Shown here piece by piece: positions 1,000 to 48,020 of a stretch of DNA of 64,000 bases. Position 1 is the stretch's first letter. The number at the start of each line of letters is the position of its first letter. The notes beneath the pieces are model-generated. The model did no database searches, was not told where the DNA came from, and saw nothing but the letters and a program-made list of their open reading frames with translations. Origin of the DNA: Octopus vulgaris (lineage: Eukaryota); contig OX597819.1 of the NCBI GenBank assembly GCA_951406725.2, positions 127,596,001-127,660,000 on the forward strand, written 5' to 3'. A program made the translations under genes and the position numbers.

Positions 1000-1533
<534 letters not shown>

Positions 1534-18597: not shown

Positions 18598-18728
18598 TGT
18601 ATATGTGAAGCACAAGACCCCATTGCAAAATGTGCATGTATGTATGTGTAAAAATATATATATATATATATATTTACACATACATACATGCACATTTTGC
18701 AATGGGGTCTTGTGCTTTCACATATACA
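18598..18728. repeat. Inverted repeat (~55-bp arms) centred on (TA)n
   Basis: gcacaagaccccattgcaaaatgtgcatgtatgtatgtgtaaa / tttacacatacatacatgcacattttgcaatggggtcttgtgc. Confidence 0.95.
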
Positions 18729-32019: not shown

Positions 32020-32021
<2 letters not shown>

Positions 32022-32220
32022 TGTCGCCATGATAGATCGTTAGCCACTACACATTTTTTTCTCTCCTTGTTTCTCTCCTTGTTTTTTCTGTGTCCCTTTC
32101 TGTAGAAGAGCGTAGGCTCGAAACGTAAAAGACTTTTTCTATTCCTGAGCGTTATATAAATACATCTGTTTGTTTTGTACACCACCTGTCTTCGTCTTTT
32201 TTTTTTCGTAACCTCTCCCT
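32020..32220 (+). mobile_element. HHR-like family 2 element, copy b
   Basis: Homologous to 1315-1480 (rc), 46781-46917, 47908-48020; between (TA)n and TA/CATA repeats. Confidence 0.85.
32096..32131 (+). ncRNA. Minimal hammerhead-like motif with non-canonical core
   Basis: cttt-CTGTAGA-A-GAGC-gtag-GCTC-GAAACGT-A-aaag. Confidence 0.6.
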
Positions 32221-46780: not shown

Positions 46781-46917
46781 AATTTCTGTTTCTTTCTGTG
46801 GAAGAGCGTAGGCTCGAAACGTTAAAGTCTGTCTCACTTCCCGAGCGTTAAACTAATACGTCTGTTTGTTGTCTACACCACCTGTCTTCGTCTTTTGTTT
46901 TTTTGCGAATTCTCCCT
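46781..46917 (+). mobile_element. HHR-like family 2 element, copy c
   Basis: Motif cttt-CTGTGGA-A-GAGC-gtag-GCTC-GAAACGT-T-aaag at 46792-46827; embedded in (TATC)n. Confidence 0.85.
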
Positions 46918-47907: not shown

Positions 47908-48020
47908 TAGCCACTACACATTCTTTATTTTTCTCTCCGTTTCTTTCTGTGTTTCTTTCTGTAGAAGAGCGTAGGCTCGAAACGTTAAAGACTTTTCACT
48001 TCCCGAGCGTTAAACTAATA
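47908..48020 (+). mobile_element. HHR-like family 2 element, copy d (3' truncated)
   Basis: Motif tcttt-CTGTAGA-A-GAGC-gtag-GCTC-GAAACGT-T-aaaga at 47954-47991; follows (TA)n. Confidence 0.85.

What the first reader, a model, noticed from the sequence alone, without database searches (positions are those of the whole stretch)
32020..32220. High-copy element with a constant non-canonical hammerhead core (CUGUNGA)
Seen: four copies in 64 kb (1408-1443 minus, 32096-32131, 46792-46827, 47954-47991) read cuuu-CUGU(U/A/G/A)GA-A-GAGC-guag-GCUY-GAAACGU(A/U)-aaag. The layout is a minimal HHR with palindromic ACGU stem III. Variation falls at position 7, the cleavage-site H and one wobble-compatible stem II base, but the normally invariant A6 is U in all four. 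Inference: either a natural variant ribozyme, or a catalytically weak fold retained as a recognition signal for a partner retrotransposon.
Basis: partly seen in the sequence, partly recalled or inferred. Interest (0 to 1): 0.78.

Follow-up and report, generated by a model that had tools for sequence, protein, structure and literature searches.

The report
Jumping-gene hammerhead with fixed core change
The four repeats are broken-off tail ends of a very abundant, recently copied Penelope-like jumping gene whose small hammerhead-ribozyme motif carries U where such ribozymes almost always have A; the motif is otherwise tightly conserved and likely still cuts RNA, but only weakly and with help, which would make it a natural test of whether these elements need self-cutting at all.

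Summary
The four copies are real. They are not a separate small element. They are 5'-truncated 3' ends (pLTRs) of an autonomous Penelope-like retrotransposon with RT, a CX4CX2C linker and a GIY-YIG endonuclease. The genome holds 23,398 U6 cores. U6 is in 78 of 81 copies sampled without regard to position 6, and in all 37 complete motifs among the 40 youngest elements. Position 7 and the cleavage-site base changed repeatedly along the lineage; 13 other motif columns never did (P about 0.002). Sister families keep A6, and stem I differs from them by one compensatory pair. U6 can pair with A15.1 and folds the monomer into a rod. Minimal hammerheads in Penelope pLTRs are known (PMC4209133), and this scan has seen such tails on other DNA. 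I found no fixed A6U in print, but could not read Lunse 2017. Cleavage is untested. Most likely an attenuated, assisted dimer ribozyme (0.5); otherwise a non-cutting structural signal (0.33). New variant of a known kind; interest 0.45.

The parts
32023..32219 (+). 5'-truncated 3' end (3' UTR/pLTR) of a Penelope-like retrotransposon, subfamily A1 (U6, A7, H17=A), set between (TA)n tracts
   Evidence: 92-96% identity over 193 bp to the 39 next-best genomic copies. Longer copies continue into GIY-YIG and RT. blastn to L054 and L105.
32096..32131 (+). Minimal type I hammerhead-like motif. Stem I 32096-32099 with 32128-32131; C3 32100; U6 32103; position 7 32104; extra A 32107; stem II 32108-32119; GAAA 32120-32123; palindrome ACGU 32123-32126; H17 32127 (predicted cut 3' of it)
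   Evidence: Sequence; pair counts; folding. Numbering follows PMC4209133.
46783..46916 (+). Second truncated 3' end (subfamily A4: U6, G7, H17=U); motif at 46792-46827
   Evidence: 83.7% identity to the focal copy over 141 bp.
47908..48020 (+). Third copy, cut short at both ends (U6, A7, H17=U); motif at 47955-47990
   Evidence: 81% over 122 bp.
1315..1472 (-). Fourth copy, older subfamily (U6, U7, H17=A, single-copy C11.1U); motif at 1443..1408; 3' boundary approximate
   Evidence: 83% over 136 bp; groups with old copies.

Best explanation
The motif is the hammerhead of the pseudo-LTR of an abundant, recently copied Penelope-like (Neptune-type) retrotransposon, in which A6 became U in the founding lineage; it likely still works as a deliberately weak ribozyme that is folded shut as a monomer and would cut only after refolding as a dimer, probably with the element's own protein. 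Shown: the element's anatomy; U6 in all sampled subfamilies and in the youngest full-length copies; A6 in sister families; lineage changes confined to positions 7 and 17. Computed: U6 lets U4-G5-U6 pair with A15.1-C15.2-G16.2, giving a rod that hides the dimer-forming ACGU. Inferred: transcription from the 5' pLTR gives an RNA with two motifs; most RNA stays uncut and serves as template (insertions carry the whole motif and end about 90-105 nt past it); a minor share is cut after H17 to trim read-through transcripts. Cutting itself is untested. Confidence in the identity of the element is about 0.97; the figure given is for the whole mechanism.
For: Anatomy: 19 of 20 long-ORF loci have the motif 0.1-0.85 kb behind the open frame, all with U6; 3 of them have it again in a 5' pLTR. 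In L105 the two pLTRs are 99.1% identical over 1,255 bp. Pfam RVT_1 E=1.3e-7; the CSRPRCRTC linker and IIYC..C..C..LYIG motif are present. Youth: 40 of 40 scored hits are 100% identical over 211 bp of 5' UTR; 37 of these 40 hold the whole motif, all U6, 34 identical. Selection: on a tree of 81 copies, position 7 shows 6 shared changes and H17 shows 3. The 13 other motif columns not fixed by the search show 0, against 28 of 75 flank columns with at least one (P about 0.002). In 109 copies found by flank or ORF, every motif column except 7 and 17 has one base in at least 102 copies. Positions 7 and 17 are the two free core positions of the consensus C3U4G5A6NG8A9-G12A13A14, A15-U16, H17 (PMC7151607, passages). 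H17 is G in only 2 of 81 and 1 of 109. G8, G12 and the C3-G8 pair are kept. Precedent: PLE minimal hammerheads cut poorly and only as dimers (PMC4209133); the anole Poseidon hammerhead cuts only with the element's protein (PMC11167929, passages); a natural A6C hammerhead keeps low but detectable activity (PMC3088659, section 8).
Against: In a complete mutational scan all single mutants of CUGA had low activity and none was rescued except the C3/G8 swap (PMC9901934, passages; per-mutant values not seen). U6 favours the rod: mean P(G5-C15.2) is 0.68 in 109 U6 copies and 0.03 in 5 natural A6 copies. The cofold minimum of two monomers is not the double hammerhead. None of the 40 youngest elements has its 5' end at the cut site (nearest -17 and +26); nor did any of 30 loci of the A6 sister family, so this does not single out U6. 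Loop II (GUAG) is as constant as the core, which catalysis alone does not require. The sister family often has C4 instead of U4 (10 CCGAC against 5 CTGAC among 18 ORF-linked copies), hinting that catalysis is relaxed in both lineages. In vitro, cleavage was not needed for insertion by the anole element (PMC11167929).
Confidence: 0.5

Rival explanations
1. The U6 motif no longer cuts. It has been kept as a structural or protein-binding signal (a rod of stem I, the new U4-G5-U6/A15.1-C15.2-G16.2 helix, G-A pairs and stem II) that the element's RT needs for RNA recognition or for starting about 100 nt downstream.
For: The rod is the predicted minimum in the youngest subfamily (-10.8 against -7.4 kcal/mol for the open hammerhead form). 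Loop II is constant. A6 never returned in any source lineage although position 7 changed 6 times; the 184 A6 copies do not cluster on a tree of old copies (64 of 300 random sets were as close). Hammerhead mutants did not affect insertion in vitro (PMC11167929); Naiad PLEs thrive without canonical hammerheads (PMC8557442).
Against: C3 and U16.1 are unpaired in the rod yet constant, while the neighbouring H17 varies between A and U only: the pattern expected of a catalytic fold. The rod gains almost nothing in subfamily A1 (-7.6 against -7.4), and folding z-scores are not significant (-0.64 to +0.49). Family C, with A6, also folds into a rod in another register, so a shut monomer is not special to U6.
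Confidence: 0.33
2. The motif is a relic under little or no RNA-level selection. Its constancy reflects chance, a low local mutation rate or a DNA-level role (promoter or splice signal in the pLTR), and U6 simply hitch-hiked with a successful master copy.
For: One master lineage can carry neutral changes to high copy number. The sister family drifted at U4. In subfamily A1 the sequence reads as a pyrimidine tract followed by TAG, like a splice acceptor (sequence).
Against: 0 lineage changes in 13 unfixed motif columns against 28 of 75 flank columns; subfamily consensuses only 70-86% identical overall. The AG is absent in U7, C7 and G7 subfamilies. A C-G/G-C swap in stem I between families points to RNA pairing (a single event).
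Confidence: 0.14
3. The copies are a non-autonomous, retrozyme- or SINE-like element that uses the motif to recruit a partner retrotransposon.
For: Most copies are short, and many 5' ends fall 70-80 bp upstream of the motif (partly an effect of the query length). A few tandem and inverted pairs exist (L021, L026).
Against: 5' ends form a continuum into the 3' UTR, endonuclease and RT of one coding element. There is no fixed 5' end or internal promoter.
Confidence: 0.03

Closest known systems
Minimal hammerheads (min-HHR) in pLTRs of metazoan Penelope-like elements (Cervera & De la Pena 2014, PMC4209133)
   Same: Type I layout in both pLTRs; short stem I; unpaired base between A9 and G10.1; G10.1-C11.1; no loop 3 with palindromic 15.2-16.2; U-rich 5' flank; most copies solitary and truncated.
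   Different: Core is CUGUNGA. All 44 rows seen in part 2 of that paper's supplementary alignment have A6, and its consensus is CUGANGAH. The core variant it reports is the compensated U3-A8; here the change is uncompensated. Stem II is 4 bp, shorter than the 7-8 bp of the schistosome families.
Neptune-type endonuclease-positive Penelope-like elements (features from Craig et al. 2021, PMC8557442)
   Same: One ORF with RT and C-terminal GIY-YIG; CX2-5CxxC linker; two cysteines between GIY and YIG; partial tandems forming pLTRs; heavy 5' truncation; insertion into (TA)n.
   Different: Clade placement was not tested against reference Neptune/Nematis sequences. The best database relatives are only 55-56% identical and unnamed. 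The paper says canonical HHRs are universal in such PLEs; this family's dominant core is not canonical.
Natural A6C hammerhead of phage Bcep176 (PMC3088659; PMC7151607)
   Same: Natural change at position 6 in an otherwise complete core; low activity expected.
   Different: One phage sequence with C, against more than 20,000 copies with U propagated through several subfamilies of a mobile element. Its Mn2+ preference is not known to apply to U6.
Protein-assisted hammerhead of the anole Poseidon element PAc (Frangieh et al. 2024, PMC11167929)
   Same: pLTR hammerhead inactive alone; uncut RNA is the main template; insertions extend past the motif.
   Different: PAc's motif overlaps the start codon and, by the passages read, has the standard C3/G8 core. 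Here the motif lies about 0.7 kb upstream of the first ATG of the ORF and has U6.

Membership tests
Endonuclease-positive Penelope-like elements | Single ORF with RT followed by a C-terminal GIY-YIG endonuclease | tested here: met
   L106 open frame of 1,047 codons; Pfam RVT_1 E=1.3e-7. KPADKG, RPIV, YIDD and IIYC..C..C..LYIG motifs. Pfam's own GIY-YIG model did not reach E 0.001, but full-length relatives carry PF01541 (name of that accession recalled).
Endonuclease-positive Penelope-like elements | Partial tandems forming pseudo-LTRs that hold the hammerhead | tested here: met
   3 of 20 long-ORF loci show both pLTRs within 8.5 kb, each with the motif. 37 of 40 youngest 5' UTRs have the motif upstream.
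Endonuclease-positive Penelope-like elements | Frequent 5' truncation with a fixed 3' end | tested here: met
Neptune clade | CX2-5CxxC zinc-finger-like linker between RT and EN | tested here: met
   CSRPRCRTC at residue 797 of the L106 frame. Shared with Nematis per PMC8557442.
Neptune clade | Insertion bias to (TA)n | tested here: met
   TA repeats follow the 3' end in 61 of 81 copies; no background rate was computed in this TA-rich genome.
Neptune clade | CCHH zinc finger in the endonuclease | tested here: inconclusive
   The two cysteines between GIY and YIG are present; the histidines were not mapped to a reference alignment.
Neptune clade | RT groups with Neptune rather than Nematis or Poseidon references | not tested
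   No named reference PLE sequences came from a tool.
Canonical hammerhead ribozyme / min-HHR consensus | Core C3 U4 G5 A6 N7 G8 A9 | tested here: not met
   U6 in 78 of 81 and 107 of 109. Not filed as a canonical hammerhead.
Canonical hammerhead ribozyme / min-HHR consensus | G12 A13 A14, A15.1-U16.1, H17 not G | tested here: met
   G12 106, A13 107, A14 109, A15.1 108, U16.1 109 of 109; H17 is G in 1 of 109.
Canonical hammerhead ribozyme / min-HHR consensus | Stems I and II paired, G10.1-C11.1, extra base after A9, palindromic stem III | tested here: met
   88 of 88 cells paired in 11 hand-picked sequences; one C-G/G-C swap. P(stem II) 0.94 and P(stem I) 0.49 in U6 copies.
Canonical hammerhead ribozyme / min-HHR consensus | Self-cleavage after H17 | not testable with these tools
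   Needs a bench assay or end-resolved RNA reads; only contigs were served.
Rfam hammerhead families | Score against Rfam covariance models | tested here: not met
   No hammerhead match at E<=10 for 32040-32200.
Retrozymes / non-autonomous HHR retroelements | Non-coding unit of fixed length, independent of an ORF | tested here: not met
   Continuous with the coding element.

The most novel reading that the evidence does not exclude
A highly successful, still active Penelope-like lineage lost hammerhead catalysis through A6U millions of years ago, yet keeps the fold under purifying selection, because U6 turns the ribozyme into a rod-shaped RNA signal read by its own reverse transcriptase. It would be a ribozyme domesticated into a non-catalytic recognition element, showing that the conserved role of PLE hammerheads is structural.
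Probability: 0.3. Interest if true: 0.72.

Novelty: new variant of a known kind. Interest (0 to 1): 0.45.

Why it matters
What the hammerheads of Penelope-like elements are for is an open question. They cut poorly, cleavage was dispensable in the one in vitro system, and it has been suggested that they merely parasitise the elements (PMC4209133, PMC11167929, PMC8557442). This genome holds a natural experiment. The dominant, recently active family has carried a change expected to cripple catalysis through every sampled subfamily while conserving the rest of the motif. Sister families with A6, and one with frequent C4, sit in the same genome. If U6 cuts, the tolerated hammerhead core is wider than search descriptors assume, and CUGANGA-based surveys would have missed this genome's largest hammerhead set (23,398 U6 against 15,092 canonical cores, counted with different patterns). 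If it does not cut, selection on the fold is not about catalysis.

Tried and rejected
Expression and cleavage in vivo: no RNA holder was listed among 22 runs. The four runs laid were contigs only, so no ends, strand or level could be read. That table lists no other letter at position 6, but none at position 7 either, which is known to vary, so it says nothing about U6. Rfam: only microsatellite-driven microRNA matches among the 150 shown, nothing locally. The repeat finder was swamped by microsatellites. Consensus comparison: 3 of 36 motif columns against 60 of 123 flank columns varied (p=5e-6), but its A4 consensus showed A6 only because half of its 8 members came from A6-selected searches; I rely instead. 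An ancestral A6 subfamily inside the family was looked for and not found: the nearest old copies to an A6 query were U 20, C 5, A 4 of 29, and A6 or C6 copies did not cluster. 5' ends at the cut site: none in 40 U6 and 30 A6 loci; uninformative on U6. A second U6 lineage elsewhere: 48 metagenome loci matched a U6-requiring pattern. 18 belong to one Poseidon-type family with covarying stem II, but unselected partner copies were A6 in 3 distinct insertions and U6 in 1, so U6 is not shown to be fixed there. The single viral-contig match shows no stem II and was treated as chance. Splice-acceptor reading rejected (AG only in A7 subfamilies). Lunse et al. 2017 could not be read and may list position-6 variants. 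The A6 sister's 3' motif was found in 1 of 3 long stretches, and no RT tree was built. No structure prediction or complex job was sent. Look-ups in earlier findings by sequence and by genome gave nothing.

Full report
1. Observation. The window has four copies of the motif and no others at up to 6 mismatches: + 32096-32131, + 46792-46827, + 47955-47990 and - 1443..1408, stem I arms included. Position 6 is U in all four. The window lies in a 2.80-Gb assembly of 227 contigs. The exact 21-mer from G8 to G16.2 occurs 18,144 times, control 0. With stem II left free, the U6 core occurs 23,398 times, control 2. With the exact 21-mer, CTG plus a non-U at position 6 occurs 614 times, 184 of them A: at most 3.4% of the 18,144. 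C is the commonest of these in the 100 rows listed, as decay from U by transition would give.

2. What it is. The 30 best copies share a fixed 3' end running into (TA)n and have ragged 5' ends. Walking 5' from longer copies leads through a CA- and CT-rich 3' UTR into a GIY-YIG endonuclease, a cysteine linker and a reverse transcriptase. A 117-residue piece gave 12,567 candidates, 150 scored, many in open frames of 600-1,047 codons. Of the 20 long-frame loci I picked from these, 19 have the motif 0.1-0.85 kb behind the frame, all U6. L105, L116 and L120 have it again 4.3-4.5 kb upstream in direct repeats of 1,255 bp at 99.1%, 634 bp at 88% and 676 bp at 93.5%. This is the pLTR-ORF-pLTR layout of Penelope-like elements. 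Pfam gives RVT_1 only; the linker CSRPRCRTC and the IIYC..C..C..LYIG motif are read from the sequence. The protein has 777 relatives at E<=1e-20 among 8,000 scored, best 55-56% identical, the few named ones from marine animals. The window itself holds no coding part (tblastn blank). The family is young: all 40 scored hits to 211 bp of 5' UTR are 100% identical, and 37 of them have the whole motif upstream, all U6, 34 letter for letter.

3. U6 is derived and fixed. The same genome has 15,092 canonical CUGANGA cores, control 53. Family C has the same stem II, a 3-nt loop and homologous flanks. It belongs to a sister element whose protein is 67% identical over 417 residues in L381. Families C and D keep A6 and have G-C where the U6 family has C-G at the fourth pair of stem I. 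In 11 hand-picked sequences all 88 stem cells pair, and that swap is the only two-sided change, a single event. With A6 also in all 44 rows seen of the published alignment (PMC4209133, supplement part 2), parsimony makes U6 the derived state. I fetched the first 80 of the 100 places listed, which do not depend on positions 3-7 or 17, and got 81 copies: position 6 U 78, A 2, C 1; position 7 U 33, C 21, A 18, G 9; position 17 A 63, U 16, G 2. In 109 copies found by upstream flank, ORF or 5' UTR (101 of 120 loci held one), U6 is in 107. These sets cover mainly subfamilies A1 and A2. The oldest subfamily sampled is also mostly U6 (20 of 29, with an A6 query), and its A6 and C6 copies do not cluster.

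4. The motif is under selection. On a tree of the 81 copies, changes shared by three or more copies number 6 at position 7 and 3 at position 17. They number 0 at the 13 other motif columns not fixed by the search (stem I, C3, U4, G5, U6, U16.1). Of 75 flank columns 47 have none, so P is about 0.002. Caveats: short sequences, a tree built from the same columns, one chromosome arm, and G8 to G16.2 fixed by the search; for those columns and the 65 of 100 unchanged stems (counted by hand) stand in. The two positions that move are the two that hammerhead catalysis leaves free. Loop II, also free in principle, did not move; with 4 columns that is not significant (0.63^4 = 0.16) but it fits a sequence-specific contact.

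5. Folding. Monomers do not fold better than shuffles (z -0.64 to +0.49). Stem II is stable (P 0.94) and stem I marginal (0.49). U6 lets U4-G5-U6 pair with A15.1-C15.2-G16.2: P(G5-C15.2) is 0.68 in 109 distinct U6 copies against 0.03 in 5 natural A6 copies (Mann-Whitney p=2e-4; copies are related). The rod beats the open form by 3.4 kcal/mol in the youngest copy but by 0.2 in the focal copy. Family C forms a rod of its own in another register. Nearest-neighbour energies ignore the core's tertiary contacts, so they cannot say whether the active form is reached.

6. Mechanism. Best supported (0.5): an attenuated ribozyme, shut as a monomer, cutting rarely after refolding as a dimer with protein help. 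For it: the selection pattern, the intact G8, G12 and C3-G8, and precedent for weak, dimeric or protein-assisted PLE hammerheads and for a natural A6C with residual activity. Against it: CUGA mutants are poor in a full mutational scan; no 5' end at the cut site in 40 young elements (none either in 30 family C loci); and C4 is common in family C. The main rival (0.33) is a non-cutting structural signal. Drift or a DNA-level role (0.14) and a separate non-autonomous element (0.03) fit less well. Anatomy, counts and conservation are shown; the rod is computed; transcription, dimer formation, protein help and cleavage are inferred.

7. Comparison and novelty. It works like, and descends from, the min-HHR of PLE pLTRs, but fails the A6 test, so I do not file it as a canonical hammerhead. 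The element meets the tested PLE and Neptune-type features; clade placement by tree was not tested. Papers seen: PMC4209133 (parts 1-2 of 4 of the text; supplement file 2 searched and its part 2 of 3 read; file 1 not searchable), PMC8557442 (passages), PMC11167929 (passages), PMC3088659 (passages and section 8), PMC7151607 (passages; no 'A6U' in the text), PMC9901934 (passages; supplements listed, not read), PMC6765202, PMC6155905 and PMC13282606 (passages; the last counts 336 recent Penelope-like insertions in an octopus genome and never mentions ribozymes). Searches for a fixed A6U or an octopus hammerhead showed none; one search was too loose to count. Lunse et al. 2017, the paper most likely to list small PLE variants, is not held, and unseen supplements may bear on novelty. 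Earlier notes of this scan describe truncated PLE tails and other core variants in other genomes, none with A6U.

8. Verdict. Observation confirmed; interpretation partly supported; a new variant of a known kind. The setting is ordinary. The fixed, uncompensated core change in the dominant active family, with conserved surroundings and A6 sisters as controls, is not ordinary, and it makes an open question testable. Interest 0.45.

Noticed in passing
L132-L159 (e.g. L132:1501+, G000:C1:585829); upstream sequences: Family B, the commonest canonical core: a short element with a tRNA-like head (A-box- and B-box-like stretches, recognised from memory), an (AAT)n spacer and a canonical min-HHR with 5-bp stems, often in inverted pairs. 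L128 has a Poseidon-type endonuclease remnant upstream. Possibly a SINE-like non-autonomous PLE.
   Followed up: partly
L270-L299, L382: Sister family C keeps A6 but often has C4 instead of U4 (CCGAC 10, CTGAC 5 among 18 ORF-linked copies; 5 against 16 among 24 others): a second uncompensated core change in the same clade.
   Followed up: partly
L221, L223, L230, L233, L234, L240, L247, L248, L252, L255, L257, L259, L261-L264, L266, L267 (metagenome contigs): 3' ends of a Poseidon-type PLE family with a 6-7 bp covarying stem II and U6. Four distinct insertions of one subfamily share U6, but unselected partner copies are mostly A6. Whether a U6 subfamily exists there is open.
   Followed up: partly
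G000:C1:3779215 and C1:4092823: Two U6 copies share a changed stem II with a UUCG loop and a U-U at the second pair; perhaps a further subfamily.
   Followed up: no
L103 (minus strand, motif at 2939), L293, L297, L298: Family C copies in which the start of the ORF joins directly to the 3' end: recurrent internally deleted derivatives.
   Followed up: partly
G000:C1:4515045, C1:10992075, L293:2873 (oriented): Further small canonical-core families with a GGAC/GUCC-type stem II.
   Followed up: no
window 18604-18722: Near-perfect inverted repeat around a (TA)n centre; the source of the top Rfam microRNA matches, which are artefacts. Possibly a MITE or fold-back insertion.
   Followed up: no
L026 (1570, 2088, 2290), L021 (1573 minus, 1841 plus), L383/L384: Local tandem and inverted arrangements of the U6 end within a few hundred bases, as expected for PLE insertions; candidates for natural dimer substrates.
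   Followed up: no
window 13515, 27794, 28820: Other GAAACGT sites with hairpin-like sequence upstream; may be decayed ends of other PLE families.
   Followed up: no
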